This document shows, piece after piece, positions 1-51,914 of a DNA stretch of 64,000 bases (its first letter is position 1; each line of letters starts with the position of its first letter). Under the pieces are notes generated by a model. The model saw only the letters and a list, made by a program, of their open reading frames with translations. It was not told where the DNA came from and searched no databases. The DNA lies in assembly GCF_023055435.1 (NCBI RefSeq), contig NW_025964001.1, positions 20,956,001-21,020,000 on the forward strand, in the 5' to 3' direction. The position numbers were made by a program, and so were the translations under genes. The stretch comes from Haliotis rufescens (taxonomy: Eukaryota).

Positions 1-999
1 GTGAAAAGAAACCTATCTGCACTAGCTGTTCTGGGGAACAGCCTGACTAGTTATATTACAGGATCAAGGAATTGTAACAATTGAATTTAGTCTTGAATCT
101 GTAATAGATCTAATGATCTTTTCTTATAACAACACATATACATGTACTGTCAAGCAGTTGTGTTGACAAACATGAATTCATGTTTGTCTTGGAAGATAAT
201 GTCAGGTCACCTACGATTGCATCTTAAACCATCAGCATCTTCTCCCATGCTAATCTATTTGAATGTGTGACAATTCAGTTGGTTCAGGTCTCAAATGAAG
301 ATTTCAAACAACATCCTGCTAGGTCCAGCTTGGCATAAAACCAAAGTTTCAATGCTTTGACACTGACTGGCTATAAAATGACTATCATTATGTTATCAGC
401 TTCCTACAATTCCAACCCTGCTTCTTTTAAGGTAGATCAACCTGTGAACCGTGGTTGCATCCAACAACTTCTCTGTTCCCATTCATTTTGAACTGATACT
501 TGTGCCTAAATGAAGTTTGCTGACAGGCTGGTCAGCAGCCATGTGAGCAACAGGTGCTTGTTAGTGGTCAGCTACATGGCGCAACAGTTGGTGCTGTGAC
601 CATAATATACTACTAAAAAAAAGATTTGTTAAAAAAGTGATTGTGATTTTGATTGTTTTGCCTTCCTACCTTCAGGTCATTTCTGGCAAAAGAGCTGTGA
701 AACAAATAATTGAAATGATCTGGTCTAAGATCGTAAAGACTAACTAATAAAATTCACTCACATCAGCATGTTAAGGATTTCTTTAACCTAGAATAACACA
801 GAACTACACAGCAGAATACAAATATCAAATACACAAACATAACAAAAGTTTGTTTCAGATACTTTTTAATTCCTCATTCACACATAATAATGACAATGAC
901 CAACATTTCCTGCTCTTAAACATGTTGATATCCTTTGAGATGCACATAGTATTCACAAAGGTATCAGTGCTAACAAATAGTTCCTACAGTCCTATATAT

Positions 1000-3608
1000 T
1001 CAATCCTTCTTGGTAGGAAATGACATTTTATAAAAGAGGAGGTAGCCTGTTGGTATAAGGCCGATCAGAGTCATTCCCATGGTAACTTGATAGCCGAAAG
1101 TGTCACGGAATCCACGCTTCTGCCAGACAAGGAGGCCATCATCTCTCTACAAACAGAGGTGTTGGACGTGAAACAGACAAGACGAAATGATCATCAGAAT
1201 CACTTAACAGCTACAAAGATGATTTATGGCAGAACAATAATTCTTATTAAAAAAACAGTAGGCTTTATGCATGCTATGTTTTATTAATCCATTTCCAAGC
1301 AAAATATTTATACCCAGAAGGAAATTAAGGAAGAACATCTACTAGCCTGAATAGTGACAACATACAGAAAAGGCCTTCAAAATGTTTGGAATTCTACAAG
1401 CTCTAACATGCTCTTAGACTACCTTTAACATCAACAAAACTGGTCAAGGCTAGGACGCTAGCACTAATTTCCATCTCTTCCATATGTGTCGCTATACCTA
1501 AAACATGGTGCTCACATGTTTAATTTCAAGGCAGAAACAGAAAACGACTGTATTTAAGTTCAGGCATTAACTACAACATTTTTGGGGAGGAGTAGTTTGT
1601 TGTTTTACACCGCATTCAGCAATACTCCAGAAATATTACGGTGGCCTTAGTGAGGATATTGTGAACAACGATCAATGCCATTGGCACTGATAGAACTTGG
1701 CACTAACCAACTTGTGTGAAATGTATCTTAAAGGCTAATATAATTTCAATTTTTGGGGGTATTGCTATATGTTATCACTATTTGGGCTAGTAGTCTTTCT
1801 TGGCTCATTTCCATCCCTCCATATGGTGAGTGAGTGAGTGAGTTGGGTTTAACGCCGCTTTTAACAGTATTCCAGTAATATCACAGCGTGTCAGCTTAAT
1901 GTGGGAGGAAAGCCTGAAGTGATGCAGGTCTCAGACGTTTACCACTTCGGTGAAACCCACGAGCACGGGTATGGTGCTGACAAACCTAGAAACACAATCG
2001 GGGTGAACCGGGATGACATTAATACTATCAAAAACTAATTATGGTATATTTCAACTCATGTTTTGGGTTTCCACAAAATGGACAAAATGTCACAATCATT
2101 TCCCCTTTATTTTCGGTGAAAAATGCAAACTATTAACGTTCATTTGAAAATACAGAAATCATCGCCATACATGTTACCACACCACTGCCTCAAGCTTACC
2201 TGAATCATGTACAATTTTTTTTTAAAAGCATCTGAATCATGATGTACAGCATGCTCAGTCTGGGAGCTCTGTGTGGACAAGAGTGAGAAACAACAGGTTC
2301 ATCATGTTCAAGATGAATGTTGTCATTTACTACTTACACACATCATGTTCTGGAACTCCTGGACCTTCTGGTACTGGGAGGAGCCAGGGGTGGTACCTCG
2401 GCATCGGGCTGCAGAGGTGGTCAACCCACGTGCAAATACACGCACTGCCTGTAAAACATTCATTGAAACAATGCAGAACAAACAGGTCTTTTGATCCATA
2501 GTGAGTGAGTGAGTGAGTTGGGTTTAACGCCGCTTTTAACAGTATTCCAGTTATATCGTAGCGTGTCAGCTTAATGTGGGAGGAAAGCCCGAAGTGACGC
2601 AGGTCTCAGACGTTTACCACTTCGGTGAAACTCACGAGCACGGGTATGGTGTTGACAAACCTAGAAATTAAATCGGGGCGAACCGGGATTCGAACCCACA
2701 ATCATAGGTTTCTGGCGTGCCCAAGGGACGCAACTCTGCACAGCGAATCGCGGCGCCTTAAGACGACTGGGCCACCCGTGCCCCCCTTTTGATCCATAAG
2801 TTGAGGAGCATTTTTCTGGCCTCACAGGAAGAACATAACATGAGTAGAGATGACACTTTTACACAATGACAAAACACACTCTTCTTGCACTTATAAGAGT
2901 ATTAATCTGTATTGAGCACATGCCATTAACATTTGTGACTCCAATAAAGCCCATAAACATGTAAAATCATCCTATTACAAAATTCAGACATCATAGAATA
3001 AAGTGGGGCAACAAATTAAAAGTTTGATTGAGTAATATACTGCCATGGTGTATACAATAGTACCGGTCAAAGTCCCATCATTACACATTTTAATTTCATA
3101 ATCATGGTTCTTTAACAACACCTCTGGCATATCACATTTCTCTCAAAGAAACAAATGACCAAGTCACACGAGTGTGAACTAAAAGAATATTCCTCCCCCT
3201 TTCATCATGTTTAATCATATTAATTTCAATGGTTGGATGTAAACTTCGGTCATAATAATCACCGTGGAACCCACAAAGTACACTTATTATCACAAAACAC
3301 AACTTAGGAAACCAACACACTGGCGGTGTTTGAGTAACGTGTAAGCAATCAGTGAATTAGAGTGGTCTACTGAACTGAAATCGTAAGTAAAATCGTATTC
3401 CTAATAGTTATCATCGAATGTTTGTAACAAGTCCTGACACCATATCACAACTTGTAACCGTCACGACTCAAGGTCATTCATTAACTGAACAATTAGACTA
3501 CGTATATCCTCAAGTATTCATTTATAAATGATGACACTGAACCACTGTTTTTTTTCTGACATATTTAAAAAAGAGCACAGTTCAAGAACGTACATTTGTG
3601 GCACTCAT
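1000..3608 (-). CDS. COX7A: Cytochrome c oxidase subunit 7A-like (COX7A1/2-type), 3 coding exons, 90 aa
   Basis: Exons 3594-3608 (MSATN), 2338-2448 (AVRVFARGLTTSAARCRGTTPGSSQYQKVQEFQNMMC) and 1000-1146 (RDDGLLVWQKRGFRDTFGYQVTMGMTLIGLIPTGYLLFYKMSFPTKKD*). All introns GT-AG, phase 0. Arg-rich mitochondrial presequence, KVxExQ..DDG motif, one C-terminal TM helix and SFPxK end, as in the COX7A family. ATTAAA on the minus strand at 865-870. Confidence 0.9.
1827..2012 (-). mobile_element. SINE family B, 5'-truncated
   Basis: Near-identical to 2501-2690. Confidence 0.85.
2501..2786 (-). mobile_element. tRNA-headed SINE family B, full length, in COX7A intron 1
   Basis: A-box GGTGGCCCAGTCGTCTTAAGGCG, B-box GGTTCGAATCCC, (ACTC)n tail, TSD cttttgatccata on both sides. 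Confidence 0.9.
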
Positions 3609-3644
3609 GTTGGGGGTCGAGGAAACTTGCCGAAGGTGATGTGA

Positions 3645-3690
3645 AACACAACGGAAGTAACTGAAGTACGAGAGACAGCGCATGGGCGAG
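3645..3690 (-). promoter_or_regulatory. COX7A proximal promoter with ETS/GABP (CGGAAGT) and NRF1-like (GCGCATG) motifs
   Basis: acggaagtaa at 3651-3660 and cagcgcatgggcg at about 3677-3689, 45-80 bp upstream of the ATG. These motifs are typical of nuclear respiratory-chain genes. Confidence 0.45.
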
Positions 3691-4933
3691 GGAGAAATAG
3701 TTTACTTACAAATTTCATATAATGATACAATAATACTGTCGTCTCCTAGGGTGTGTCCGTAGTTACAAATATGAAAAAATAGGTAGTGTATGAAGACTCC
3801 ACTTTGGAAAAACACAATCAAGTTGTAAATAATGGTATACGGGAGACGTTCAATTGAACAATAAATGATGTCTCCCTTAGAAATCTAAACTGTGCCTTGA
3901 TGAAAGTCGTATTTTGTTATTTCAATGTGATAAGTAAATCTTTTTAGGATATCAGTCATTTTTGACACCATTATGCTACACTTTCAAAATGTTAGTCAAT
4001 ATTTACAATATGATGTAGATCTAGTTATGATCAATATTATTTACATAATAAAATAATTTGACACGAAAATAGAGATGCCGCTTTTAGGCATTAGATCTAT
4101 TATTATTTTAATGTTGGGAACACAGTAAAAATATAATCGAAACAGTCCCTTTATTTTTAAATAACTCTACTCTTCACTACATTCGTATAATAGCTTATAT
4201 AATCGATGGGAAGTGAAGGTGAAGTGAATTATAATTGGTTAAAATTATTCAAACGATTACAAGGCATCTTACCAGTTTGAGGTAGGCCTATATATGTGAA
4301 AGGCACTTTAGCTTCATATTTGTGCAAATACTTTTTGTGTAATAAAGAAGATTTTACGAGCAACAACTGGAAACAAAACCTGCTCATGTTTGAACATAAA
4401 CCCAGTTGCCACTCAATGTGAAAGTATAACATAATTAAACACATTTCTTAGAGACCTACTAAACAGTTTCAAAGTTTGTCATTGGATACAACTCGTGGTC
4501 CATTTCTGCAGAGACCATAAAATAGATTATTATTTTTCTATTTTACGGTCTCCGATTTCTGCCAGGGAAGTGACAAAAATGAAAATCACAGAAGGCTTAC
4601 TGCCTGAGGTGTATTTCTTTAACATATTTTGTATACACGGACCACACACACGCAGACCGAACTCCATACATGATCAACCAGATCTTGATTTAACCCTGTA
4701 TAGTTTCAAGCCGTGACAGAGCCGTATGTTGACTCAAAGACGTATAGACGTCTATGGTTGACTTAACACATATAAAACATTTTGCAAATCATTTATTTTA
4801 AGTATGTGTCTATGACAATCGGCCACTAGTGATATATGTCTTTCCAAACTGTCTTGAAACAAAGAACATGGATGGTGATTATTGAAGAAACGTTGTATAC
4901 AGATGACTGTCAGATCACTAATAACCTTGCTTT

Positions 4934-5197
4934 GAGTGAGTGAGTGAGTGAGTGAGTGAGTTGGGTTTAACGCCGCTTTTAACAGTATTCCAGTTATATC
5001 GCGGCGTGTCAGCTTAATGTGGTCTCAGACGTTTACCACTTCGGTGAAACCCACGAGCACGGGTATGGTGCTGACAAACCTAGAAACATAATCGGGGCGA
5101 ACCGGGATTCGAACCCACAATCATTGGTTTCTGGCGTGCCCAAAGTGAAGCAACTCTGCACAGCGAATAGCGTCGCCTTAGATGACTGGGCCACCAC
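4934..5197 (-). mobile_element. SINE family B with internal deletion
   Basis: Matches 2501-2786; TSD accttgcttt. Confidence 0.88.
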
Positions 5198-6232
5198 CTT
5201 GCTTTTAAGACTAAAATGTATCCATAACATGACTGAAGTAGAATTCCACTTACACTGATGTCGAATATGTGAGTGAACGTAACTGAGGGAACCAATTAAA
5301 ATATATAATAAATATTATTTATAATAGTATAATAATATAAATACAAATCAGCTCTGAAGAGCAACAATATTAGTTACAACACGAACTGGGAAGTCTATAA
5401 TTCTAATTTGGAAATTTTTACTTACATTTGCTGCAGGTTTAGGGGCGCATATCGGCCTTTGAGCAGGTCTAGATAAATTCCTGTGACAGCCATTCGGATT
5501 TAGAAAGAACAAAAAAGTTACAGGCGATTTTACTCTAATAAGAATATCTTTCTTAAAATAGCTATTTTCCTTCTAAAGGTGTTTGTGTATAAACAGATTC
5601 ACGGCGCTCTGTTAAATATGTATGAATTCTGCTGTGCGCCTAAAGACCTTTCTACGTATAAATGTCTGTTAAATATATTAATTACCTGAAACTATACCGG
5701 TATGTACACAGAAAGAACAGAATAGTTGAATAAGATGAGAGGACCGATTCATTCATGCTCCCAGTATAGGACAATACCCGCAGGACCCTATTATTCCATA
5801 GTCTTGCAACAATGTACTTAATTAATATTTTGGTAGATAGTAACTCTGAGTGCGTGCCTGAAAGGTATTGATATATCCTTCCTGGGTGTAGTATAGTACA
5901 TGGCAACCCGGCCATAAGTAAACTTTAGCAAAAGTCATTGTGTGTGTGTGCCTGTGCGCTCGTGCGTTTGTGTGTTAATGGCCATGCATATTTTTTCATC
6001 AGACAAAATCAACTTACCTGATTTCTCAATGTTTTAAACAGTAACTGAATTAAACCAATCCTTTTTAAATTCATATGTTGTTAGGATTGTCATTAAATAC
6101 ATCCAGTCTTTGCACAAGCTAGGGTTTTATCATAGTCCATCTAGTGCTGTGCGTTACATAGGAAGATCCGGGGTATATTCATCTTCCCCAGGCAAGTGAG
6201 TTAACTGACTATAAAAGTTAACTCTCTTGCCT

Positions 6233-6486
6233 CCGGAAGATGGGGTATAATAGGTCTTCAGCAACCCACGCTTGCTGTAAAAAGCGACTCTGGTTGTCGT
6301 AAGAGGCGACTAACGAATCGGGTGGTCTGGCTCGCTGATTTCGTTGATGCATGTCATTGATACCAGTTGCGTGGATCGATGCTCATGATATCAATCACTG
6401 GATTGTCTGGTCCAGACTCGATTATTTACAGACCGCCGTCATGTAGCTGGAATATTGCTGGGTGCGGAGTTAAACAACAAACAAAC
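6233..6486 (+). mobile_element. SINE-like family C
   Basis: High similarity to the reverse complement of 7395-7658. Confidence 0.85.
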
Positions 6487-6928
6487 GTTAAAACTAAACG
6501 TAACATATGACAGATTTAACTTATACAAACCCTACAAATAATCATTGTAAACACCAATTAAATAAACTTCATCCGATAATCAAGACAAAACACAAGAATA
6601 TGTGACAAAAAAGGCCACTAAGAAATTCAACATTTTTAGAAATATTTTGTGTGGGTGGGTAGGGGGCTATGTCTTAAAACTTAAGGAATTATGTGTTTTT
6701 ATCCCACATCGAACTTTTGAACTGGTCCCTAAAAAAACCTATAGTTGATTAGTGTTAAAAAGCCATAAGCCAGAGTTCGTAGCCAAAATGGACACAAAGT
6801 TAAGTTGGAAGCCCATTATCAGGACCTTGCACAAGGGTGAACTATAGGTAGCGTAAAACTAGACTCAACTACTCATTCTAATACAATAAATATGTGATGG
6901 CACCTCAGTGTAGAAAGTAATAAACCAC

Positions 6929-6962
6929 AGTGTGTGTGTGTGTGTGAGTGTGTGTGAGTGTG

Positions 6963-7006
<44 letters not shown>

Positions 7007-7014
7007 TGAGTGAG
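6929..7014. repeat. (GT)n/(GAGT)n microsatellite
   Basis: Read directly. Other microsatellites at 33575-33633, 37841-37880 and 61550-61573. Confidence 0.95.
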
Positions 7015-7394
7015 TTGCATCTCTTTGGGATGCCAGGAACAATGGTTGTGGTTGAGAATCCCAGCTTTGCCCACATTATGTTTCTGCGTTTGTCAGCACC
7101 ATTCTGACTCCAAGCTGGTTCAACTGAAGAAAAATAAGGTGAAAAACACTGCTATGATATATTATTTATTAATTAAGATTTGTACAAGGCTGCATTCCCT
7201 GGTAGTTCCAGCATGGATGTGTGCCCATGTAGAGTCAGGCCCAGCATCATCAGCAACTATCTTTTATACATACATTCTGAAACAAAAAAAAACAATTTTT
7301 GACAACAAATACATGGATAAGGATAGATGTTATACTTTGTTCATAATACAACACTGTATCTTTCACAAAACACTTTGCAGTGCGTGCATGGAGT

Positions 7395-7658
7395 AGAGTT
7401 CGTTTGTTGTTTAATGCGACACTCAGCAATATTCCAGCTATATGACGGCGATCTGAAAATAATCGAGTCTAGACCAGACAATCCAGTGATTGATATCATG
7501 GGCATCGATCCTCGCAATTGGGATCGATGACATGCTTTAATCAAGTCAGCGAGTCTGACCAACTGATCCTGTTAGTCGCCTCTTACGACAAGCATATTCG
7601 CCTTTTACGGCAAGCATGGGTTGTTGAAGACCTATTCTACCCCGGATCTTCACGGGTC
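7395..7658 (-). mobile_element. SINE-like family C (non-tRNA structured head), full length
   Basis: 5' GACCCGTGAAGATCCGGGGTAGAATAGGTCTTCA, 3' GCTGGAATATTGCTGAGTG..TTAAAC(AAAC)n, TSD gcatggagt. Other copies at 6233-6486, 7829-8027, 13826-14027, 20255-20450, 29803-30053, 35549-35812, 41905-42162, 46070-46215, 49557-49812, 55714-55950 and 57265-57530. Confidence 0.9.
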
Positions 7659-9047
7659 GCATGGAGTTAAAATGTGTTCATACATTATAATTTTGACAAA
7701 TTGGTAAGAAGTTTCTATGACACATACACCCTTCAATGACACATCCTTGATACCCAGTGTATCACATCTCACATTCTATATGGACATTTACCCTGGAATC
7801 ATTCAACACCATAGATTCGTTTCGGAAATGTTTGTTTGTTTGTTTGTTGTTTTACGCCGTACTCAACAATATTCCATCTTTATGATGCCAGTCTGTAAAT
7901 AATCAAGTCTGGACCAGACAATCCAGTGATTGACATCATGAGCATTGATCCACACATTTGGGATATGATGACATGCATCAACCATGTCAGCGAACCCGAC
8001 CACCGAATCCCGCCTCTTATGGCAAGCATACATTTCACAAGTGACATCACATTCCTTATCTCTCTTTATCAATAACTTGGCACAAAATTTCTCTCGCTCA
8101 TGAGCTTGAAATCAACAACCAAACAAACTCCCCTCTGAACACGAATTTCAGCAAACATCTACATTTACAATTGTGACCTGGTATAACAAGCACCAGATAT
8201 ATTTGACTCTGTTATCTGTGCACTTTCAGCTGTACTTGATGGTTCCCTGAGCATTAATACATGGAGAGGGAAGTCCTAAGGCTGCATTCAGAAAACGACA
8301 ATATGCTGCTTACTCGTCATTTTCCAAATGCTCTGTCGACTTGATTGAAACCCAGCGAATTGTTCAAAATGCAAAATCTTCTCATACTTATGCTAGTTGA
8401 TATTTTAGTATGCAAAATAGACAAATAACATACATATATCTATGTTTTTGAGCAGAAAGGTAGTTTTTTCTTTGATAGGCCAGTACAAGACACCCCCCCC
8501 CCCCCCAAAAAAAAGCAAGTCAAGTACTGTGATATCGCTGCTTGTTTCAATTATGAAAATTTAGCAGACATCTATTTTTAACATCATGTCATCAAAACCA
8601 GTCTCAAAACGAGGCCATGATTGCAAATGGACCAAGGTATATATCGTAAGGGAGATATAATACTCTGGAAAGCTCTTACAAGGAAATATGGATGAAACAA
8701 ACAAATGTCATTGTCTCTCAGACCCTCCCACATCAGTAAATCATGCGAACAGGAAAGGATTTTATATCTGCTCTACACTTCGAAATGACTCATACAAGGC
8801 TGCAACTTCAGCCACTAGCCAGACGTGTGTGTGTGTTGTAAATTCTGTTTGGTATAGTAAGCTCAGCTTTTAATAGTCCACTTGATAACACCAAATACTA
8901 ATTCAAATAACGCTTAGAGCCATGTCCGGGCTAATAGAATCAAAAGTTTTTAGGACAGACTACACATACATGCACTTATCATTGTTTCCAAAACTAAATA
9001 TGGCCCGCAAAACATTCAACTGTGTACCTGAACTACTCGGACCATCA

Positions 9048-11177
9048 TCAATCCTTTGGCTTCTGTGGGAAGGAGAGTTTGTAGAGCAGAACACCAGTCA
9101 TGATGGTACCGATAGCGGAGAGCCCTAGAGTAAATATGTACATCCCACGATCACGACCAAACATCTGCCACACCAGCTTCCCGTCATTTTTCTAGCAGTG
9201 GAACAGAAACAAAGCATCCATAAAATTGTGTCTATCTAGAAACAAAGTACATCATCAGCATAGTCTCACACAATAAAGAAGTGTTTATCTAGATAGTACA
9301 TGTATTATTATGTACATATTATGATATATAAATTTACACAAAAACATCCCTTTTTTTCCCTATAAACATGATAACATAATGAATTTCATGTCAGCTCAAA
9401 CTAATCACTCCTGAGATAATCTTTAAGGAATGGTATTACTTCTGGTGATGTAGCAAAACAGGTCTCATTTTCTGTTGACCTTTATCTTGAATATGTTAAT
9501 TCAGGAGTCATTCAAGAAACTTCTGACTTTCAGAAATGTTGTGGGTCCAAAGACCTCGCCCCAAATAGTGTGGTTCCTCCTTTCAAAGAAGTCATTCAGT
9601 GTAACAAAACTCCCCGAGCCCTCTCCCTGAATATTAAATGATCAATCCTGAAGTGTCCTTTGGTTGAACTTTAAATTCCCAAGGTTTCACTCACATAATT
9701 TATTTGAATATTAAAGTTTGATGGCAAGTCATCTCCCTATTCATTACCGTCATGAGGTTCTGCAATGCAACTATCTTGCTGTAAGCTTGAGTGGCAGGTA
9801 CAATTCCTCTGTTGCCGGAGCCAGTTGTTGGGATACTGACTGACTGTGGTGGAGGGGGAGCTGCACCTCTCGCTGGGGCCGAGCCACGGAAAGCTACTTC
9901 AGGCTCACCCACAGTCTTTGTTTTTGCCGAATCAAACAGAATCTGTGAGACTCTCCCACTGTATGGTGTCAAACCCTGGAAGAATCATGGGAAGGATATA
10001 ATGATAAAAATTGTTATAATAAAATTATTAATGCTTCCCTTAGGATTCTTAGAACAGGATTGGTCATGTTGAGAACTAGTAGGCTCAAATATATTTGAAG
10101 ATACAACATTACAATTTGGAGGAATCCGAACATTATAGATCCTTCCCTTTCATTTTATGCCTGAATATTTGGTCAAGACTGATCAGTCTGAAACATGATA
10201 CAACTTACAAGACTGAACATTTATTTGAGAGAAGACTATGGTTTTACAGGACACAACATATTATGATATTGCCTCCTATGCCACTTATTTATCCGATGGT
10301 ATTGCCTTTTCGATTGTAAACCTAAAACTGTGTGTTTCAATATAATTTATTGATTATTCCTTGACCTTCTGTGGTCATTTCACAATTTAGTTCCATACAA
10401 AATGAATTCAGGATTAACCTTTGAATTTCAGTTTGGAAATCACCTCAGAACACTTCATACAGGTAGATGTATAAGCACTGTATGTCATGTGTCACCTCAA
10501 AACGGTAGACTGATATTAGTTGTTGTGCCCCAAGGCTAAGGGTGTGAATTCAATCTCTTTATCATTGGATCAAGACAAGGCTAAAGTCACCTGACAAGGA
10601 TTAAATCATCCATGAACACAATAGTAATAATGAGGGATAATAGTTGCACAGTTTGTTCAAGGTGGCTGACAGTAAATATACAATACAGGTGGTGAGGATT
10701 AACAATTAGCATGCTCACCTTCAAATAGTAATTAGCATTAGCTTTACAATTAAATGTTATTCCAACCAAATATTTAAATGGATGCCACTTAAACTTATTT
10801 TTGTTAGGTAAAAAAGAGCAAGCATGAACTAATAAGAAACTTGTAGTTCTTCAAAGACTTGATAATGATTTCACAGTTAGCATTGTAGATTGTAGCTTAC
10901 TGGTCTCAAATCTTGAGTTGTATTTTTTAATAGTCTCACTGTGCAAAATCAAATCCATGGACTCTTACAATTTTCAATATCACGATCAAGATGAGTTAAT
11001 TTAATTTGTTCGTCAGATCTATAGCTAGGCAATATCATGCCTGTTCAACACGCAAAGTGGTGATCGAAAATCGGACAATGTGTTAATTGACAGTAATCAG
11101 CTTACTTGTGGCTGATATGCTGCTAGCTGTGTTGATGGGACAAGAGCCCCGGTCATTCCACAGTACTTGTAGAACAT
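9048..11177 (-). CDS. COX7A2L: Cytochrome c oxidase subunit 7A-related protein (SCAF1/COX7RP-like), 3 coding exons, 147 aa
   Basis: Exons 11106-11177 (MFYKYCGMTGALVPSTQLAAYQPQ), 9748-9975 (GLTPYSGRVSQILF...YSKIVALQNLMT) and 9048-9191 (KNDGKLVWQMFGRDRGMYIFTLGLSAIGTIMTGVLLYKLSFPQKPKD*). GT-AG, phase 0. The N-terminus matches the vertebrate COX7A2L signature MYYKFSG...AYSPQGL; the C-terminus is a COX7A TM domain. Confidence 0.88.
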
Positions 11178-11499: not shown

Positions 11500-14400
11500 A
11501 TGGCTAACTATATCAGGGACCTGGACAGAGAAAATCTGCCGTATATTGGTCAGCTCAACAGAAACAGGGTTTTGGATGGCACTTCCCCTTCAGCCAGACG
11601 GATACGTGAATTAGAAGAAGAGCTTGGCATCAGATATCAACCAACATCTCCATCAGCTAGCCAGTACTTGGGCAGATACAACCAGGGAGATGTCGGCCGA
11701 AGAGCAGTTACCGAGGTGAGGGAACGATCAGTATATTTTCGTTAAGTGACCCTCATAATAAGACCATTATAATCATTGTCATAGGGCTACACTCCGAGGC
11801 CATGCAATTCCTCTTGTGACATTGTTACAGTCGGATTGACAGAAGAACATGCCCGTAAAATAAAAACATTGTGTCTTTAAAAGTATTTGCTACTATGCTT
11901 GTTGTAGAAATATTATATACAACATATAAAAATAACATTAAAGCCACATGCCATCTTTCCTCCTTATTGGAGACATGTTGAATCTTGAACTAGATGAGAT
12001 TTTTTACTTATAATGCTGAATAATATGTGAAATGTCATGATTTAAATACCTGCAGTTCACAAATATCATTGGAACTCTGATTTTGATTTTCCTCTGTAGG
12101 TAAAAGTGTTTATGGATTAGTGGCAATAGATCAATTATGTTGGTGGTGGTATTTAATTATGTATCATTCATAAGTAAATGTAAATATTTAACTGGATGTT
12201 TCAAATTCATGCCTAATGACAGGTTATAGAAATGAAACTATTGTCATTAGTTCATATTTTACAAAAAAGTATTATCTGTCATTCATATATTTCACTGCAC
12301 GACAACCAAGAGTTACCTCCCTTGGAGTGTTATTTACATGCTACCTAGCAGCACAACATAGGTTTGTTTTAAGTCAAATATGAACTGTGAGGATTTAAGA
12401 AATTGGAAAAACTTAATTACTATTGAATAATCATTTAGACAGGAAAACTTATTTTGATGAGGGGTTGTTTTGCTTTGTTTATCCAAGTGATGGACAAACA
12501 ATAGATGTTTATTTATAGTGAATGTACATGATGTAGTCAAGATTAATCATGATGCCAAATATTAGTAACAATTATGTCTACCATCCTGTTTTCATTGAAC
12601 ATGTTATTTTATTCATCTGATCTTTGAAAATAACATTTTGTTTTATTATAAACTTTAGTAATAATCAAATGGTTAATTCAAATGAAGAATAAACAAAAGT
12701 ATTACCCTTTGAAAACAGGTTTGTAACTATGGTATTAAGCATTGTTGATATGATAATTAACAGACATACTTTTTTAAGTAAGTAAACCAGTCTTTATAAG
12801 TCATGTTTACGGTATTTGGGCCTGACTAAAAACATATGATAGATACTTGATTGTAGAAATATTATATATAAAACCATAACCTGCTATTTTGTGTACATTA
12901 ACAGAAAACTGTTAAAACATTTTTTTAAAATACTGGTACATATGTTATTATTTTTATATAGCCTCAATGTATTACTTGGACACCTCAATTTCAGATGTCA
13001 GATCAGCTTAAGTCTGCCCGAGAAGAGCTCAGAAAGAAGGATGCCCTTATACAACAACTGTCAAGGTAAATAAAACTACAGTCAGTGTGAAAAATGTTTT
13101 ATTTAACTTTGCCATTGGTTTGCCTTAATTCTGGTTTATTTACCATGTTTACACAAATCAATTTCTTTGTAATAGGCACTGTTATTAACAGATACTCTTG
13201 AAACTGACTTTGTAGTCCAAATAATTTTCTAAAACCTGTTAAATGTAAATTGTGATATGATTGTTACTTGATTATGGTTATACATATTGAACTGTGAGAC
13301 CTCCTGTATCTAGTTCATTATAAATGTTTTTTTCAATTACATGTCATCATTGTAACTGGACATCTAGAAATTCAAATAGAATGATTACGTTTTTCTTTCC
13401 TTCAGTTTGGACTCCGCACCAAGAATTCACAGATCACCTGATCCTTTACGGGTAAATTATGTTCATCGTCTACAGCAGTGTTGACAGTAATATTTTTACA
13501 AGGACTGATAATCTTAGTAATATTTTTTAACTTATTTCACTTAGATCATTACTAAATTCCTTTTAGGTATATTGTCACAGTGATTTTTCCAAACTTAAAA
13601 AAGATACATTTTACACAACTTAAGGGGAACAATTCAATTTTAGGTAATATTGAAATGATCTATTTGGTGAGGCCATTCTATATACTTCCACTCACTGCTG
13701 AAGCTACTCAATGTAACCATTTCTTGAAAAGAGGTCTTTGTGGCCGTAACATATTCTAGATGTATAAAACTGATGTACGCGGATAATGCATAGATTCGTA
13801 TGTTTATACTCACTAGTTAGTTCCCCTGTGGGGGTTCTGGGTTAGAATAGGTACCAAGACTTGGTGACTTGGTTGATTGCATTTCATCATACTGCTATGG
13901 CATAGATCATTGCTTACAATGTCAAACACTTGATTGTCAGGTCTAGAAACAGTTATTTACCATGTTTACAGCCCACTGTCATATGGCTGGAATATTGGTG
14001 AGTGCGGGATTATACAACAAACAAACACTAGTTTGGTGTTCCCTAAGTGGAGTCATAGACCATGTATTGGGGTACTCTGTGATTCCATTGTCGAAATGAA
14101 AGTGTATTAATTGATAAACCTGTCCTCTTCAACAAACTTTATACTACGCCATTTCATTGATTTCGTTTCTGTTTTCGTTTTGTCACAGATCGCCTTTTTG
14201 AAAAAAACCCTTCCTTCCGGTTCGGGTATTGTAGTTGGTTGTGCGTTAAACTTGTGTCACAAGAGACTGGATTTGTCCACATTGGCATGGTGGCAGCACT
14301 TTGAACCTATGCTAATACCGATTTCAGCACACAGAAACCGTAATACGAATCCAGTTACCCTCAGACGTTCAACATAAGTGTGTAAACTATGAGCTGAAAC

Positions 14401-17400
14401 TTCCAAAACACACGTCGGACATTTGCATGGGGGTCGTGTAAATTAGGAAGCGGACGTAAAATATGGCCAACACAAAAGCTCCGAAGCAGTCGCAGTTGAC
14501 GATGAATGAGACAATTAATTCTTTCGAAAATTGGAGGCAGAAATTAGTATACATTCTTTGCCTAGACAATAATTTCGCCCCGCCTCACTTGATCACTTGA
14601 TCACTCAATCACTCATCTGACATGACCTTCTTTTCACACAGAGAGGCATCGTGATGGAGTAAAAATTTGATTTTAATGAGACTGATACCTAATCCAGCAT
14701 ACTGAATGTTCAAAATATTTGCTACCCAGTGTTGTCCACATTACATTGAATGACACAAGTTTATTTACAAGGAGAATTAAGTGTAGAGTAGAGGAAGCCC
14801 CTCTATAAGCATGACCAGGTGAACAAGTTTGTGTATATTATAACCTGTAATCTGCTTGCAGGTGGACACTCTGTACCTGGGAGACAGGACAGCAGTGGAA
14901 CAGTCCCGCAGTGAACTGGCAACATCGCAGGTCAAGTTAGAGAAAATACAGATACAGGTAGAATAATTAGATTTACATCCTTCTATCTAAATGCTTTTGG
15001 ATGTTAGTGTTTGTTTACAACTTGACAGGTAAAATATTCAAAAGTTATGTTATGTCAAAAAGCTGCTTGAATATCGAACTTCCTCCTTTAAAAAAAACTA
15101 TCCTTGTACATGACTGTTAATGTTTGATAGAAATAGAATAAGACCACACTGGAGATTAGAGTGCGTGTGTTTGTCAAAGGTAAAAACATATTCGTCTTAA
15201 ATTTAAAAAAAACAACTTAAGTCAGTCACTTACTTTGGAATTATGTATATTGATTTTAAGACTTTTTTTAAGAAATCAAAATATATGTTAGATTGGTGAT
15301 ATGTTTGAATTATTTCCTTACAAGTATTTTTGTTGCAACTATTGATTCAAGATTCATGAAGAAATTAGATTGACGACATGATCTGTCAGTTTTCGGTGTT
15401 CATGAATCAATTAATATAGTACAAGTACATGTATCAATTTCGTAATGGAATTTTTCTGTGGGGAGTATTAGGGTAAATTGTTTCAATATTATTTCAGCTG
15501 AGGGAGGCAGACAATGAAATAGAAATAAAGTCTATAAAAGTGAAAGAGCTTCAACATTTGCTGGAGACAAATCGTGAAAATGAAGCCAAGTTGACAGCTC
15601 TGGTGCAGTCGCTCCGAGACAGAGTGCGTGAGCTGGAGGACAAGGCAGGGTGTATCGAGACAGTGGCTGGACGTAGCGAGTACGCCATTGGATCACTGCA
15701 GAGAGACAACCGTGAGAGCCATGACCGCATCCTGGAGCTAGAGGGGAGGCTGAGGAAACAGTTGGAGGAGCGCGAGGCGTCCGAGGCCCGAGCTGATGAG
15801 TGCCAGAAGAGGCTGACTGAACTCCAAGCCCAGCTGAGTGGGCTCCTCCGAGCTGATGACCTGTATGAGTCCACCCCCGCATCTGTAGAAACCATTGTCA
15901 GGAAGGTAAGGGTCAAACTTAGATTTTGATAATCTTTAATGACAAAAAGTAATCATATCACATTTAAAATTCCTTTGGCCAAAATTTGAATGCTTATATT
16001 GTTTGTTTTTAAGTGAGACTGATTAATTATGTTGTGGACCTTTTTGTTGTTTTTGCCGTTCGTACATCAACAGAATTACAATCACTTTAAAAAAATAAAT
16101 GTTTATGAACAGAATTGTGTTATTATGCAGTGTTTTCTTTCATATCTTGTAGTTTGTCTTCTTGTATAGTTTATGATCTTTGATGATGTTTGTTTGACAA
16201 TGATTATTAGATTAGTGAGTGGACAGTGTTAATTATTGATGTCTGAAGGTGATGTGGTAAAAGAACTGCCAATTTTCATCTTCCAGATGACAGATCTGAT
16301 GCAGGAAAACGCTATGTTGAAAGGCAAACTTCTGTCCCTGAACGAGGCCTTGAACAACACAGAACTGGAGACCAAGGCCAGTCGGGAAACCATAATGAGG
16401 CTGGTGTCAGAGGTCGGGCGTGAGCAGAAGGTGGCCACGAGATACACAAGTGAAATTGACTCTCTCCGAATGGTAAGACAGGACACATGTAGAATTTGGA
16501 AATGAAATGATTAAATACAGTTTTAGCTTGTTAACCTTAGTTCCATCTGTTTTAGCTTGTTCACCTTAGTTCCAACTAAATGGTGGAGGCCGATACGTTT
16601 TCTGAAGCTGAGGTTGTGTAGCCACCTTGCTGGGCTCTGAAATACTCTTCACCTCTGAAACACATTTTCGTGCACTCTGAGATTAAATCTTCGCTTCCAT
16701 TTGCCTCAATCCATGTTGATTTCTGAGCAAATACAGATGCTGTTGTACACAACATTACAAAATGGTGGCTGGTTGTCATTCTACTGAGATGATGGATATA
16801 TTTCTTTGAGTTCACAATTCACACGACCTCATCCCCACAAATTATTTTCTCATCGAAATTACATGATTCACGAGTAGTGTCCAATTAAAAAAATGAAACT
16901 TAGATGGAGAAGGGGTGAATTTTGACAAGACTGATGGGCCATCTACGTAACGTTTCAGCAAGCCGTTTGTAATTTTAATGGGCCAGGAGTTTAACTGACC
17001 CTTGTAACATTTCCTACTCTTTATCCCAGGAAAGAGACAACGCATTGGCAGCCAGACGAGAGGTGGAGAGGGAGATTGAATTAATGAAGGAGAGGCTAGA
17101 TGCCAACCAGAGGTCGCTGGATGCCACTAGGGGTGAACTGGAGCTGAGACAGGGACGTCTGTCGTCTCTGGACCGGGAGGTTCGTGAGACTTCGCACAAT
17201 GTCCGCAGTTGGGAGAACCAGTACCATCTGTTCCGGGAGCAGATCGCGGGTCTCCTGAGCAACGCCTTTACCATGGTGGAGCCCAGTGAAGACATGATCA
17301 AGGACACGATCAGGAGGATGGCACAGACCAACAAGGAGTATGAAATCGTGAGTAAAGCAGGGATGATTATTCTTCATTTAAGTCTTTTTAATCAAGAGTT

Positions 17401-20400
17401 GAATTTGAATTTCTGAAAATTGAATGGACCTCCCTCCATCTGCAATAGAGACAGAGGCACCTGATAGGCCTACTTTATAATAATAGATATTATCATTATA
17501 AAACAGACATTCTATGATTACATAGAGCATCTCTCCCGATTGTCTTTTGATATCAAATATATCTACTCTCGTCAATAAAAGTTTAAAACTCTGATGCTTA
17601 TCATGTTGATATATTTCCTTTTTTTTTATCATCATACATCATTCTTCCAACTTTTCAGTGTGTAAACAGTGAGTGAGTGAGAATGGTTTTAAGCCGCGTT
17701 TAGCAATATTCCAGCAATATCACGGCGGGGGACACAAGAAATGGGCTTCACACATTGTACCCATGTTGGGAATCAAACCTAGGTCTTCGGCGTGACGAGC
17801 GAACGCTTTAACCACTAGGCTACCCGACCACCCCAGTTTGTAAACAGTCATAAGCAGTGTCTTGTGTATGAAAAGTACTGGTAACCAGCTTTTGTAGCAG
17901 AGAGATTAGTGATGTCATTTAACAGTGACGTCATGGTAAGCAATGACGCCACGATGGTCTGCAAAGCATTGAGAGATGTCCCCCAGGAGAGATTGCAGCA
18001 TCTCACCCATACAATCCCTACTGTGGAGCCCCGTTTTGGGTTATAGATGTTAATTTTCCCTTTGCAGCAATTGGGGAGCCTGGAATCCCGAGTGAAAGAC
18101 CTAACGGAGCAGCTAGAAAATCAGTATGATCTTAATCGGTCAAGCAACCAGAGGTACAAGCAAAATGAGACCAGCTTGTATGATCTGGAACAAAGACTGA
18201 GATGTACGGAAGGCGAGCTTGCAGCAGGGGATCTACTTCGTGATGGGCTCAAGTCAGAGAAAGAGAAGGTGAAAAAATATAAAAGGATGGTACCCATTTG
18301 AATGTTTAATGGATTAACTGGACTGAATGAATGATATAATGTTACTTTCATAGCTGAACACAAATCATTGTCCCTTAATGAATGTCAAAGGCCAAGGATG
18401 CATGGCATTCATTTTGCTCTCGTCTTACCTCATCAAACTGTTAGGGATTGATTTTGAGTGTGAAATAATTTTGAAAATAAAGAAATATAAACTTTAAAAT
18501 ATTTTTATTAAGAAATAAAGTGTCAACCTTATGAACTAATATATCATCTCCATGTCTTATAGTACAGCTTTTTAACATGTACATGCTCTCAATTTTCAGT
18601 ACATGCGTCTGCTGCAACGGTTGGGCGAGAAGATGAAGATGGACCACATTGCCCTTGACCTTGGCTTTGACATGACAATAGACGCCATCATGGCGCGAGC
18701 CGGGCAACTGGTGAAGCTTGAAGCTGATGCTCTGGCAGACCGCAGCACCCACATATACAACCTGCAGCGCAAGGTGAAGAGTCTCAAGGAGCAGCTGGAG
18801 AGCAAGGACCTCCATATTGACCTGCTCAGGAAGAAGATGACAGGTCTGGAGGAACGAGTGCATAGCCGCGGTGACGTGGAGAAGGAGCGTGACGGGGAGT
18901 CGATGCGGGTGCGGAAGCTGGAGAGGCTGGTGGACAAATACAAGCTGCAGCTGACAGACGCCAGACAGGAAGTCCAGAACCTAAAGGCTCATCTGCTCGG
19001 CTCCAGTGAAATGAAGGTGAGACCAAGTGACCAGAGGCACTACTTAAGCATTTGGAACTCATTTCTTTATTCATGCTTAATGAGATGGACTTAATGGCCC
19101 TTTGAACAGTACTTGTGTTAAGTAAGGCTTCGTCTTTATGTTGGAGCTACACCCAATATCAGGCAGGTCCTAGGTGTTTACCACCTTCTCAAGTCCAATG
19201 TGCACCGGCGTGTGCTGACAACCCAGGGATCATAACTGAAGTTAATCTGAGATCATGGGATCCAGCATTTCATGTTTAGAACTCACTTGACATAATTATA
19301 CTTTCCTTTAACAAATATTTTAAAATAAATGTTAATAAAGTTCTTTTGAGCACAGTTATCAATCACGAAATGAAGTTTAGATTCTGTGTGCACTTGTGTA
19401 CAAGTGTAAGCAGTGCATAGTGTTCCACTAGAGCCAGTCTGCAATTATGATCTTATCCCATCTTTTGATAAATGACAGTTTCAGTCCAAGTATATATGGC
19501 TGAATGTATGTGACATCCAATACCATCTTACTGAGGCAAGGGGAGTAATTGACTATAAGAGTCCAGTTTCTATCCCTGCCAAAGTAGGCTGCAATTTCTT
19601 ACTTGATCGTAGCGCCACGAGTGACTATTACAAGTTATGGCCCTTCTATGTCCCTTTTACTAATAAGGCCTAAGGTGAAGAAATAAAATTGGTTCTCATG
19701 CAGTAGCTTTTTTGCAGGCAGCCTTTTTTGTTGTTGTTTGGTTGCGTACAGACTAGTAAGAATCCAAATTCGTATATCGCTGTGTATAAAGCGAGTTTTT
19801 CATAACTTAAAGAAGGCCTTCAAGAGGGGGGCAAGGGGAATCGTATGTGAAGTGATCGGAAGATCGCACAACTCACCGTTATTTACAGCAACCACGGTCA
19901 TATCGTTATTGACACCTTGAAACGAACTCCAGTGGAAAGAGAATGGATATATATATCATAAGTGCCATACACTGAATCGCTGAAAGTCATATTTGCTGTA
20001 GTTCAACAATGAGATGTCAACATAAAGTTTTCGCAATCGCGGCCGCGGGAGCATCGGAGTTGATTGGTCAAATTCTTTCATACGAAAACATATCCGGCAT
20101 TAGCAATCAGCTGAACCAAAGTGCAACGCTTATGTTTATTAATTTATTTCACATGTACCATATTCGACGTAATAAGCACCCGGGGCACTCTAAACAATCT
20201 CAAAAAGGGGGCTCTTATTAGAATATAATTTTGGTGAGGGAAAAAACAGACTGTGCTGGTCGTAAAAGGCGGCTTAATGGATTGGGTGGTCAGACTCAGC
20301 AACTTGGTTGATGGGGTGTCATTGTACACCGACAGCCTGGATAATTAGCTCACAATATCAATCACTGGATTGCCTGGCCCATACTTCTTTATTTACAGCC

Positions 20401-22033
20401 CGCTCTCATATAGCTGCAATATTGCTGAGTTGGGCGTGAAACTACGAACACACATTAACTGACCTTCCTGTGTCAGGTACGCACCATGGAGCAGCGCAAG
20501 GACATTGATGAACTGGCCCAGCAGGTGGAAGAACTCGAGGACCTACGCAGGAAGCAGAGCCGGAAGATCGCCAACCTGAAGTCGGAGGTGCAGTACCACG
20601 AGAACGAGAACCAGGAAAAGAGGGTGGTGTCTGACAACGCTGTGCACGCTCTGTCTGGAGAACTCAAGACCACCAAGACAGCGCTACAGAACATCCAGCA
20701 TAGAGAGAAACAGGTACAGACAGTGCCGACATGTCGCAAAACATCTCTGTATAGGCGAAAGTATTGTGTGGTTGTTAAGGTAGCTGATCTTATGGTTGTA
20801 ACATGAGTACCCCTTATGGTTTAAAACTCAGAAGTTGTGTTGGTAGACTGAGTGAGTGACTTGGGTTTTATGTTGCTTTTAGCAATATTCAGGCATTATA
20901 ATTGCGGGGACACCAGAATTGACTTCACACATTGTACCCATGTGGGGAATCGAACCTGGGCCTTTGATGTGACGAGTGGACACTTTAACCACTAGGCTAC
21001 CCCACCCCCCAAGGTCACCATGACTAAGAGACATGAGACTGTATATCACCAAACCCACTCACAAAACTTTTCTCGCATGCAGTACAATCTGCAGCTGTTC
21101 AAATAGAGTGATGAATGTATAGTAAAAGTTGTAGCATTAATATTGCTTGTTAAACATTTTCTTCATATCCAATCTCATTAAAATCAGATCTTAGTTCTTG
21201 CTGCTGCTAAACAAAGATCTGTGGACATCCAATTACGGGTCATGTCAGACTGACCTTGCCCAAACTTTGACCAATGGAATGGCTGACAAGAAGTCGACAT
21301 TAGCCAATCAGAAGGCAGCTTACTCGTGCTTTACGGCACTCATTTCAAATTACACCTCAAAACATATTTTGACAAATTCTCGATTAAAAATTTGAAACCT
21401 AAACAAAAGAACATTCTGCAATGGCTAATAGATGGTCCAGATTGTATGGATTCAGTCGTTAACCCCATAACTATCGTTCAGAATACCCAGTGTAAAAAGT
21501 TTTCGAGGTTGCATGATTAGAAATCACATTCCGACTGTCACTTTCATGATCTGGTAAGCGACGCTCTGATTGGTCGGATGAAAGGCCGTTCTGACATGAC
21601 CCCTAATGGCATGTCTTCAGATCTTTGTTTAGCGGGAGCGGAAACTAAGATCTGATTTTAATGAGATTGCTTCATATCACACAATTTGTCATCATTATTT
21701 TAACAGCTGTTGGACTTCCGTAATGTGGTGGCCCGTATGCTGGGCCTTGAGATCAACTCCCTGGCTGTCCCCGACTACGAGATCATCTCCCGCCTGGAGA
21801 AGCTCATCCACACCCACCATCAACAGACTCACACCAGCATGAACCTGGAGGAGGCCCTCGCTGACATGGAGGACGGTTTCACCAGCGACTACAGCACCAC
21901 GCGGCGAGCTCTGACGACCGCTGACCCCATCATGCGCAGGTCACGTGACAAGTCTCGCAGGAGGGCAGCTCGGGCTCAAGTCAGGGCAAGATCGCTTTCG
22001 CCAACGAGACGCATTGACCCAAGATCTTATTAA
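11500..22033 (+). CDS. CCDC170: Coiled-coil domain-containing protein 170-like, 11 exons, about 840 aa
   Basis: Exons 11500-11715, 12995-13065, 13406-13451, 14862-14957, 15498-15905, 16287-16472, 17030-17347, 18068-18268, 18600-19016, 20477-20713 and 21707-22033. All GT-AG, phases consistent, total 2523 nt with no internal stop. Heptad-rich, with CCDC170 motifs [31 protein letters not shown] and [28 protein letters not shown]. Confidence 0.9.
14100..14582 (+). mobile_element. Truncated 5' end of an LTR retrotransposon (LTR end, PBS, gag start) in CCDC170 intron 3
   Basis: ...CA followed by PBS-like TGGTGGCAGC at 14288-14297. ORF from 14463, [40 protein letters not shown], resembles Gypsy gag N-termini of marine invertebrates. 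Confidence 0.6.
17668..17834 (-). mobile_element. SINE family A (tRNA-Asp-like head), CCDC170 intron
   Basis: GGTAGCCTAGTGGTTAAAG...GTCACGCCGAAGACC..GGTTxGATTCCC head resembles tRNA-Asp(GTC); shared 3' tail plus (ACTC)n. Other copies at 20848-21010 (-), 23538-23665 (-), 24316-24459, 36885-37013, 39071-39219, 40998-41132, 47417-47571 (+) and 55450-55570 (-). Confidence 0.85.
20848..21010 (-). mobile_element. SINE family A
   Basis: Similar to 17668-17834. Confidence 0.8.
21170..21669. mobile_element. Non-autonomous DNA transposon with long TIRs and a 9-bp TSD (AcademH- or MULE-like)
   Basis: TIR CAATCTCATTAAAATCAGATCTTAGTT... at both ends (about 100 bp); TSD cttcatatc at 21161-21169 and 21670-21678. 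Confidence 0.85.
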
Positions 22034-45042: not shown

Positions 45043-45188
45043 ATGTTCTGTTGAGTATATGTATGTTCTGTTGAATATACACATGTTCTGTTGAATATAC
45101 ACATGTCCTGTAGAGTATGCGTAATTCTGTTGAATATACACATGTTCTGTTGAATATACACATGTTCTGTTGAATATACACATGTTCG
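45043..45188. repeat. 20-bp minisatellite, about 7 copies
   Basis: Unit atgttctgttgaatatacac. Confidence 0.9.
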
Positions 45189-45191
45189 TTT

Positions 45192-46068: not shown

Positions 46069-46429
46069 TTACAGACATCAGGAGCATTGATCTACGCATT
46101 TGGGATACGATGACATGTATCAACCAAGTCAGCGAATTTGACCACCCGATCCCGTCAGTCCCTTACGACAAGCATGGGTTGTAGAAGACCAATTCTAACC
46201 CGGATCTTTAGGGTTCAGGTCATAGTGAAGACATTCACGGACATGCAGTCAAAGACACTGACTTATTTACCAAAACATGGAAACAAAGAAATCTAAGTGT
46301 CCAGGTGATCGTCAACAATGACTGCGTGTACTGACACCGTCTACATCTTGTCTCAGCGATTCGGGCGCCGCAATTCCTTGCCGTTGCGTTCCTTTGGAGG
46401 ACCAGAAAACTATGTCGTAAACTCGAATA

Positions 46430-51475: not shown

Positions 51476-51914
51476 ACTTTCTCCAGGGTGACATAGCATT
51501 ACCTTGCATTGTTACAATAAAACAAGTGAGTCATCATGTTTTATGTAACTGTCCGTAATCTCAGAAACAACTGATGGTTCCATTAGCATACAGGCAGCTG
51601 GAAAGGCTTGTAGGACTTAACATTTGACATGCTTATGATTGCCCCTAATATACAAGACACCTTTGACATTGTTAAACATGTTAAACATTCATACCTTGTC
51701 ATTTAAATGTAACAAAAACAAATACCCATTTACATGAAGACTTCGTGACATGAATTTGTGAAGCAAACACGAGAATGTCTTGAATGTGAATAACCTGGTC
51801 TGACTTACAGTAGTAAAGCATTATCTCTCTTGACATTATTAGAGATGTGAATTAAATCTTCAAGGGTTTAGTTCGCCCACTAACATTCACATACAGCTGG
51901 TTCGTCCTCGCAAC

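What the first reader, a model, noticed from the sequence alone, without database searches (positions are those of the whole stretch)
1000..11177. Tandem COX7A and COX7A2L/SCAF1-like pair with shared lineage-specific C-termini
Seen: two same-strand paralogues 5.4 kb apart with identical three-exon, phase-0 coding structure. Their last exons align at roughly half identity (DGxLVWQ, RD, TG.LL.YK.SFP.K..D*) and their exon-2 ends match (RG..P....Y.K....QN.M). The first exons differ completely (MSATN versus the SCAF1-type MFYK...AYQPQGL). Established: in vertebrates SCAF1 replaces COX7A in complex IV to build the III2+IV supercomplex. Inference: the subunit-swap pair here arose or was homogenised locally, so it may be an independent origin of the COX7A/SCAF1 switch in an invertebrate.
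Basis: partly seen in the sequence, partly recalled or inferred. Interest (0 to 1): 0.7.

Follow-up and report, generated by a model that had tools for sequence, protein, structure and literature searches.

The report
Abalone SCAF1–COX7A tandem gene pair
Abalone has two neighbouring, spliced genes for alternative versions of one respiratory complex IV subunit, one carrying the SCAF1-type hook predicted to tether complex III; that hook also occurs in worms, an insect, sea stars and vertebrates, so it is likely ancient rather than a new invention, while the two genes' shared core has likely been swapped between them more than once in evolution.

Summary
In detail: two minus-strand, three-coding-exon, phase-0 COX7A-family genes 5,439 nt apart, both spliced in transcript-like contigs, and the only two copies found in the genome. 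Gene B (147 aa) is SCAF1/COX7A2L-type; gene A (90 aa) is presequence-type COX7A. 'Independent origin' is not supported: the SCAF1 N-terminus occurs in molluscs, an annelid, a nemertean, a priapulid, a dragonfly and echinoderms, and scores 41 bits on a profile built only from non-spiralian-type rows. The shared C-terminal motifs are not abalone-specific: every named spiralian row of either type has them, including Trp where mammalian SCAF1 has the His reported critical for complex IV binding. Core trees reject a SCAF1-type clade (AU p≤2e-4) and join both types within heterobranch gastropods (100/95-98), so cores were likely reset repeatedly between paralogues. Whether this also happened in abalone is unresolved: 3 of 4 trees separate the pair, 1 joins it, AU rejects neither, silent sites are saturated. 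Two papers read here call SCAF1 vertebrate-only or absent from flies, but NCBI names and a 2025 preprint already hint otherwise. Function in complex III2+IV is predicted, untested.

The parts
11106..11177 (-). Gene B coding exon 1 (24 aa): SCAF1-type N-terminal segment, predicted complex III core-protein hook
   Evidence: joint 9974/11105 in 4 of 4 runs; aligns to mouse Cox7a2l 7o37_I residues 1-43; 41 bits; predicted beta-hairpin 2-15
9748..9975 (-). Gene B coding exon 2: end of SCAF1 motif, Pro/Ala-rich low-confidence linker, start of COX7A core (amphipathic helix)
9048..9191 (-). Gene B coding exon 3: COX7A core with Trp motif and transmembrane helix; exon continues 20 nt past the stop to 9028
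   Evidence: PF02238 E 0.0058; full protein 22.8 bits, cut-off 22.1
7168..7276 (-). Gene B non-coding 3'-UTR exon 4 (low end as far as one contig reaches; polyA-type signal at about 7170)
   Evidence: joint 7276/9028 in 4 of 4 runs
3594..3608 (-). Gene A coding exon 1 (5 codons); contigs extend the exon up to about 3674; NCBI model uses an upstream in-frame ATG at 3683
   Evidence: A at -3 for ATG 3608, C at -3 for ATG 3683; a 2-nt insertion behind 3611 in 2 runs of one related organism would shift the upstream frame
2338..2448 (-). Gene A coding exon 2: Arg-rich, acid-free presequence-like segment plus start of COX7A core
   Evidence: 19.7 bits on a profile of other short-type N-termini; 4 K/R, 0 D/E in first 25 aa
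1000..1146 (-). Gene A coding exon 3: COX7A core with Trp motif, transmembrane helix with a Pro shared with other gastropod short-type proteins
   Evidence: (64 bits on non-spiralian core profile)
854..999 (-). Gene A 3'-UTR (as far as contigs reach; polyA-type signal at about 870)

Best explanation
The locus holds two spliced COX7A-family genes in tandem, and they likely encode interchangeable occupants of the COX7A slot of complex IV: gene A a plain subunit predicted to be imported by a cleavable presequence, gene B a SCAF1-type subunit whose N-terminal hook is predicted to insert into the complex III core-protein cavity and so build III2+IV. The SCAF1-type N-terminus is shown here in eight or more animal groups and is therefore inferred to be inherited from the bilaterian ancestor, not reinvented. 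The two N-termini have stayed distinct, but the complex-IV-binding core (3' end of exon 2 plus exon 3) has likely been reset between the paralogues several times by non-allelic exchange (gene conversion or Lepore-type unequal crossing-over, which tandem same-strand genes with matching phase-0 introns permit): once before the spiralian radiation (Trp motif and P-x4/5-Y motif in both types), again in heterobranch gastropods, and in at least one unnamed lineage. In abalone the last exchange, if any, is old. Shown: gene structure, splicing, family membership by sequence, distribution of motifs, tree conflicts. Inferred: ancestry, exchange mechanism. Untested: incorporation into complex IV, complex III binding, supercomplex formation.
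For: B hits only mouse Cox7a2l in PDB by sequence (7o37_I E 8e-5, N-terminal and core stretches) and its model's best fold match is 7o37_I (E 7.5e-3, prob 0.97). N-terminal profile from 14 non-Trp SCAF1-type rows: abalone B 41 bits, 0 of 2000 shuffles reach it, 17 of 18 Trp-type B rows score above 10 bits, 0 of 27 short-type rows score above 0. Named carriers: Batillaria, Littorina, Octopus, Liolophura, Dimorphilus, Lineus, Acanthaster, Lytechinus, Priapulus, Ladona, Arion, Bradybaena, Elysia chlorotica. Trp-type vs other rows are split by a starred branch in the three treekit trees (98/90, 99/95, 97/92). P-x4/5-Y before the first helix: 19 of 19 Trp-type B, 25 of 27 Trp-type A (1 miss unparsed), 2 of 14 other B, 0 of 10 other A; YxVP in 6 of 6 heterobranch-clade rows and 0 of the other 64. 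Heterobranch A+B clade 100/95, 100/98, 100/98; pair P0032/P0063 100/98, 99/93, 100/94 with 85% exon-3 identity. All Trp-type B as one clade rejected p 9e-4; mollusc-A vs mollusc-B including heterobranchs rejected p 0.009. One unnamed row (P0010) combines the one-residue deletion of gastropod B-types with the Pro of gastropod A-types. Reviews place SCAF1's N-terminus in a core-protein cavity of complex III and its C-terminus in complex IV (PMC12731061).
Against: Core alignment is only 67 columns; many forks are open and bootstraps had not settled in two runs. The homologue set came from a profile built on abalone sequences, so Trp-type rows are enriched for abalone motifs. No vertebrate COX7A1/COX7A2 row was in any tree. 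Many rows are unnamed, so species-level A/B pairs exist only for H. rufescens and O. vulgaris. Tandem linkage was shown only in abalone; the O. vulgaris pair lies on contigs of equal length but 459 accession numbers apart. No DNA trace of conversion remains in abalone. The His reported critical for complex IV binding (PMC7246575) is Trp in B. A one-gene, two-promoter state reported in Drosophila offers another route to shared cores. Heterobranch SCAF1-type N-termini are degenerate (11-25 bits), so function may vary.
Confidence: 0.55

Rival explanations
1. The ancestor had one gene with two promoters (SCAF1-type and presequence-type first exons on one core), as reported for Drosophila COX7A; lineages split it independently by partial tandem duplication and reciprocal exon loss, giving B upstream of A.
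For: Preprint 10.1101/2025.09.29.678879 (passages): fly isoforms A and B share the COX domain and differ at the start, B related to COX7A2L. Both abalone first introns are phase 0 and the order B then A is what a partial duplication predicts. Explains the spiralian-wide Trp change with a single event.
Against: In abalone the type-specific parts extend into exon 2, the same exon as the start of the core, so a simple swap of first exons does not produce both. No remnant alternative first exon in 84 kb scanned. Pro shared by 6 short-type/fragment rows incl. Patella and abalone A and by 0 of 39 B-labelled rows dates a split early in gastropods, so heterobranchs still need a second event.
Confidence: 0.25
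2. A and B are old separate genes that never exchanged sequence; their cores converge within each lineage because both must fit the same lineage-specific surface of complex IV.
For: Silent sites saturated and flanks unrelated in abalone; both proteins share one binding site by homology; alignments are short.
Against: Heterobranch A and B share several features at once, including a one-residue deletion, YxVP and the C-terminal tail; P0032/P0063 are 85% identical in exon 3. The deletion is, however, homoplastic (also in echinoid and several unnamed rows).
Confidence: 0.12
3. One reading: the COX7A/SCAF1 switch arose independently in abalone or molluscs.
For: Abalone A+B joined at 96/84 in 1 of 4 trees; highest raw core identity of A is to H. 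rubra B (53%); abalone B with deuterostome SCAF1 rejected in the 34-row test (p 1e-4), not in the 70-row test (p 0.094).
Against: SCAF1-type N-terminus of the same length and register in protostomes and deuterostomes; convergence of a 28-residue motif is implausible. The local pairing concerns the core only.
Confidence: 0.04

Closest known systems
Mammalian SCAF1 / COX7A2L / COX7RP (PDB 7o37_I, 7o3c, 7o3e, 8pw5_I)
   Same: N-terminal motif in register from residue 1, linker, COX7A core with one transmembrane helix.
   Different: 147 vs 113 aa (longer Pro/Ala linker); Leu-Val-Trp in place of the Pro-Ile-His motif; one-residue deletion after it; tandem with its COX7A paralogue; no functional data.
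Mammalian COX7A1 / COX7A2 (PDB 1occ_J, 8pw5_w, 9i6f_J; Pfam PF02238)
   Same: Short presequence-like N-terminus plus core; spiralian profile hits these chains at E 1.5e-10 to 5e-8; Atlas nearest clusters COX7a.
   Different: Gene A itself misses Pfam PF02238 at E 0.1; Trp motif instead of His motif; Pro in the helix.
Drosophila COX7A isoforms A and B (bioRxiv 10.1101/2025.09.29.678879)
   Same: One presequence-type and one COX7A2L-like N-terminus on a COX7A core (passages).
   Different: One gene with two starts there, two genes here; the preprint reports GFP-tagged isoform B as nuclear and does not test supercomplexes; its sequences are in a supplement I could not open.
[quoted passage not shown]
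   Same: Same N-terminus and Trp-type core.
   Different: Automatic names only; the Haliotis pair is annotated 'uncharacterized'.

Membership tests
COX7A family (PF02238) | Core domain: amphipathic helix plus single transmembrane helix, recognisable by profile | tested here: met
   B 22.8 bits vs cut-off 22.1; A not hit by Pfam but 64 bits on a profile of 24 non-spiralian rows; helices 87-100 and 114-140 in model
COX7A family (PF02238) | Physical subunit of cytochrome c oxidase | not testable with these tools
   needs complexome profiling or structure
SCAF1/COX7A2L | N-terminal segment homologous to the complex III-binding N-terminus | tested here: met
   41 bits, 0 of 2000 shuffles; aligns to 7o37_I 1-43
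SCAF1/COX7A2L | Pro-Ile-His motif (His73 reported critical for complex IV binding, PMC7246575) | tested here: not met
   Leu-Val-Trp at 106-108 in B and the same Trp in A and all named spiralian rows; matched by motif, as chain numbering in 7o37_I differs by two
SCAF1/COX7A2L | Core orthologous to vertebrate SCAF1 core | tested here: not met
   all-B clade rejected; B with deuterostome B rejected in one test (p 1e-4), not in another (p 0.094)
SCAF1/COX7A2L | Required for III2+IV supercomplex; N-terminus in core-protein cavity | not testable with these tools
   no full-length abalone core proteins or code-11 complex IV partners were available for a complex prediction; no job was sent
COX7A1/2-type (short) subunit | Cleavable mitochondrial presequence, no SCAF1 N-terminus | tested here: inconclusive
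   no SCAF1 motif (-4 bits); 4 K/R and no D/E in first 25 aa; no targeting predictor or cleavage data
COX7A1/2-type (short) subunit | Orthology to vertebrate COX7A1/COX7A2 | not tested
   no vertebrate short-type sequence was returned as a usable protein id, so none is in the trees

The most novel reading that the evidence does not exclude
The SCAF1/COX7A subunit swap is a pan-bilaterian device, not a vertebrate novelty, kept working for over 500 million years by concerted evolution: the two N-termini never mix, while the complex-IV-binding core is repeatedly copied between paralogues (stem Spiralia, heterobranchs, and abalone itself), which let both fix Trp at the His thought essential in mammals.
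Probability: 0.3. Interest if true: 0.65.

Novelty: new variant of a known kind. Interest (0 to 1): 0.45.

Why it matters
A review states COX7RP is conserved only in vertebrates (PMC7246575) and an eLife paper states it has no fly homologue although flies have a digitonin-stable III2IV (PMC10569793). A functional SCAF1 in molluscs would move the origin of regulated III2+IV assembly back to the bilaterian ancestor, give hypoxia-tolerant invertebrates a testable supercomplex switch, and offer a natural His-to-Trp variant to probe how the COX7A slot is recognised. The repeated resetting of the core is a clear case of domain-level concerted evolution in a respiratory subunit. The genes themselves are ordinary family members, already modelled by NCBI.

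Tried and rejected
Recent gene conversion in abalone: rejected (2 of 14 four-fold sites identical; best local DNA scores of 3'-UTR and introns 21-31, no extended homology). Third copy or pseudogene: none in two genome searches with proteins (2 matches each); the Pfam-family search of the genome found 0, so it was insensitive. Remnant alternative exons: none above noise in window plus 20 kb. Chimeric B-to-A transcript: none among the joints shown, but 1384 joints were not shown, so not excluded. Contig depth was not used to rank expression; runs are only guessed to be RNA and no RNA holder is on record. PDB searches with single exons gave nothing relevant. Word-index protein searches were shallow (2, 4 and 11 hits). 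Metagenome scan gave 1 locus of 104 pattern matches, a transcript-like contig encoding P0015, no synteny. Last-15-residue comparison: A's best match is abalone B (38.5) but B's best non-orthologue is Patella A (44), so uninformative. Site-wise likelihoods show no contiguous tract favouring the pair. No complex prediction was run. Earlier findings of the scan: none. Rows left out of trees: 28 of 98 proteins (fragments, intron-led models, near-duplicates, one 2505-aa repeat protein) for the 70-row set; the 34-row set is a hand-picked subset of it. Literature searches (0 papers; nothing relevant) found no study of SCAF1 in molluscs.
Full report
1. Observation. Six-frame motif search and translation place both genes on the minus strand. 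Gene B has coding exons 11177-11106, 9975-9748 and 9191-9048 (147 aa); gene A has 3608-3594, 2448-2338 and 1146-1000 (90 aa). All four introns are GT-AG and phase 0, the second intron sits at the same place in the core of both, and the B stop lies 5,439 nt from the A start. B is letter-for-letter the NCBI model LOC124137080 of Haliotis rufescens, whose contig length equals that of the window's contig (67,865,795); A is the C-terminal 90 aa of LOC124137078. Contigs of runs guessed to be RNA join B introns 1 and 2 and A intron 2 in 4 of 4 runs and A intron 1 in 1 of 4 and 3 of 4 more runs. They also show a non-coding fourth exon of B. Two protein searches of the genome give only these two matches.

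2. Identity. P0001 hits only mouse Cox7a2l among PDB sequences, with an N-terminal and a core stretch; Pfam COX7a 22.8 bits; Atlas nearest clusters are COX7a, including a 114-aa cluster commonest in arthropods. Its model (30-row alignment, pLDDT 71, pTM 0.31) has an N-terminal hairpin, a low-confidence linker, a helix at 87-100 and a transmembrane-length helix at 114-140; the best fold match is 7o37_I, weak (E 7.5e-3, TM 0.30). Gene A is missed by Pfam but scores 64 bits on a core profile made from 24 non-spiralian-type rows, and has a basic, acid-free start.

3. The SCAF1 N-terminus is not a local invention. A profile search of 1.84 billion representatives gave 84 hits at E 0.001. Look-ups of 30 proteins and named SCAF1-type rows in Batillaria, Littorina, three Octopus species, Liolophura, Arion, Bradybaena, Elysia chlorotica, Dimorphilus, Lineus, Priapulus, Ladona, Acanthaster and Lytechinus; P0049's species was cut off in the output (I recall the accession series as amphioxus; not from a call). 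Four unnamed rows are taken as vertebrate SCAF1 by likeness to the mouse chain (inference). A profile from 14 non-Trp rows scores abalone B at 41 bits (0 of 2000 shuffles reach it; best 9.2), 17 of 18 Trp-type B rows above 10 bits and 0 of 27 short-type rows above 0.

4. The shared core motifs are spiralian-wide. All named mollusc, annelid and nemertean rows of either type have Trp in the motif where mouse SCAF1 has Pro-Ile-His and bovine/mouse COX7A1/2 also have His; named priapulid, insect and echinoderm rows have His (the regular expression mis-parsed P0019/P0090 and missed 4 rows, read by eye). The exon-2 motif P-x4/5-Y follows the same split: 44 of 46 Trp-type rows vs 2 of 24 others. Caveat: the search profile was abalone-based. 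A review says His73 is critical for complex IV binding (PMC7246575, passages), so both abalone paralogues carry a change at that site.

5. Trees of the core (67 columns). The Trp-type rows are split from the rest by starred branches. A clade of all SCAF1-type rows is rejected (p 5e-17; 1.7e-4), as is a clade of Trp-type SCAF1 rows (p 9e-4) and a mollusc-A versus mollusc-B split that includes heterobranchs (p 0.009). Starred branches force at least 5 changes of N-terminal type. Three A and three B rows of the heterobranch clade (five named) group at 100/95-98 and share YxVP (6 of 6 vs 0 of 64); P0032 (B) and P0063 (A), from one run, are 85% identical in exon 3, though they may be two species. 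For abalone the result depends on model and sampling: A groups with Patella or other gastropod A rows in the 70-row LG+G4 tree (71/91), the 34-row LG+G4 tree and the 70-row mixture tree (99/85), but with abalone B in the 34-row mixture tree (96/84). AU tests reject neither (pair p 0.36, 0.53, 0.35, 0.42). Characters for an old split: a helix Pro in abalone A, Patella A and four unnamed short-type or fragment rows, in 0 of 39 B-labelled rows; BLOSUM exon-3 scores of A are higher to P0004 (152) and Patella A (141) than to abalone B (103-116). For local pairing: A's highest raw core identity is to H. rubra B. DNA shows no recent exchange (2 of 14 four-fold sites, no flank homology).

6. Mechanism. 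By homology to the mammalian system (PMC12731061, PMC10626428; passages only; the primary structure paper was not held), B would take the COX7A slot of complex IV with its core and reach into the complex III core-protein cavity with its N-terminus, giving III2+IV, while A would give free or respirasome complex IV. This is predicted, not shown. For the history I favour an old tandem pair whose cores are episodically exchanged (0.55), over repeated splitting of a two-promoter gene (0.25), parallel co-evolution without exchange (0.12) and independent origin (0.04). The shared features cover both the end of exon 2 and exon 3, and type-specific sequence reaches into exon 2, which fits exchange better than simple first-exon swapping; no remnant first exons were found in 84 kb. 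O. vulgaris has both types on contigs of equal length, 459 accession numbers apart, so tandem order is shown for abalone only.

7. Literature. Passages read: PMC10569793 (SCAF1 has no fly homologue; III2IV seen in digitonin), PMC9346487 (fly IV+III2), PMC7246575 (COX7RP only in vertebrates), bioRxiv 10.1101/2025.09.29.678879 (fly COX7A isoform B related to COX7A2L, common COX domain; supplement closed, so its sequences were not checked), PMC7332985 (zebrafish Scaf1); PMC5921304, PMC8786287 and PMC12896496 added nothing. Ten searches found no study of SCAF1 in molluscs or of core homogenisation; subscription journals are not covered, and NCBI already names several invertebrate proteins '7A-related'.

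8. Verdict. New variant of a known kind; interest 0.45.

Noticed in passing
window 11500-22033 (+): A multi-exon long coiled-coil gene starts head-to-head 323 nt from gene B's ATG (likely shared promoter region); Pfam gives only generic coiled-coil hits. I recall the sequence type as CCDC170-like; not tested.
   Followed up: partly
window 9027-7277 (-): Intron in the 3'-UTR of gene B, starting 20 nt after the stop codon, joined in 4 of 4 runs.
   Followed up: partly
window about 1826-2010, 2503-2790, 4935-5200 and 6218-6486, 7403-7658, 7846-8030: Two very high-copy short interspersed repeat families (one beside GAGT microsatellites) that swamp transcript contigs.
   Followed up: no
window 3609-3683 (-): NCBI's 115-aa model of gene A uses an upstream ATG; weak context and a 2-nt insertion in a related organism suggest the 90-aa form is the real one.
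   Followed up: partly
P0027 vs P0005: P0027 is P0005 (Batillaria) without the exon-2-equivalent: a possible exon-skipped SCAF1-type isoform or a gene-model artefact.
   Followed up: no
P0040, P0044, P0091, P0035: Heterobranch SCAF1-type N-termini have a 4-residue insertion and lose the PQG motif; P0035 is more degenerate still. Complex III binding may be altered.
   Followed up: partly
L003:4534-4809 (-) and L003:7966-8390: An ankyrin-repeat exon downstream of gene A (Pfam Ank 24.4 bits) and short frames that look like transposase remains (by eye only).
   Followed up: no
window about 45000-46160 and 51850-53460: Two long tandem-repeat arrays giving repetitive open frames on both strands.
   Followed up: no
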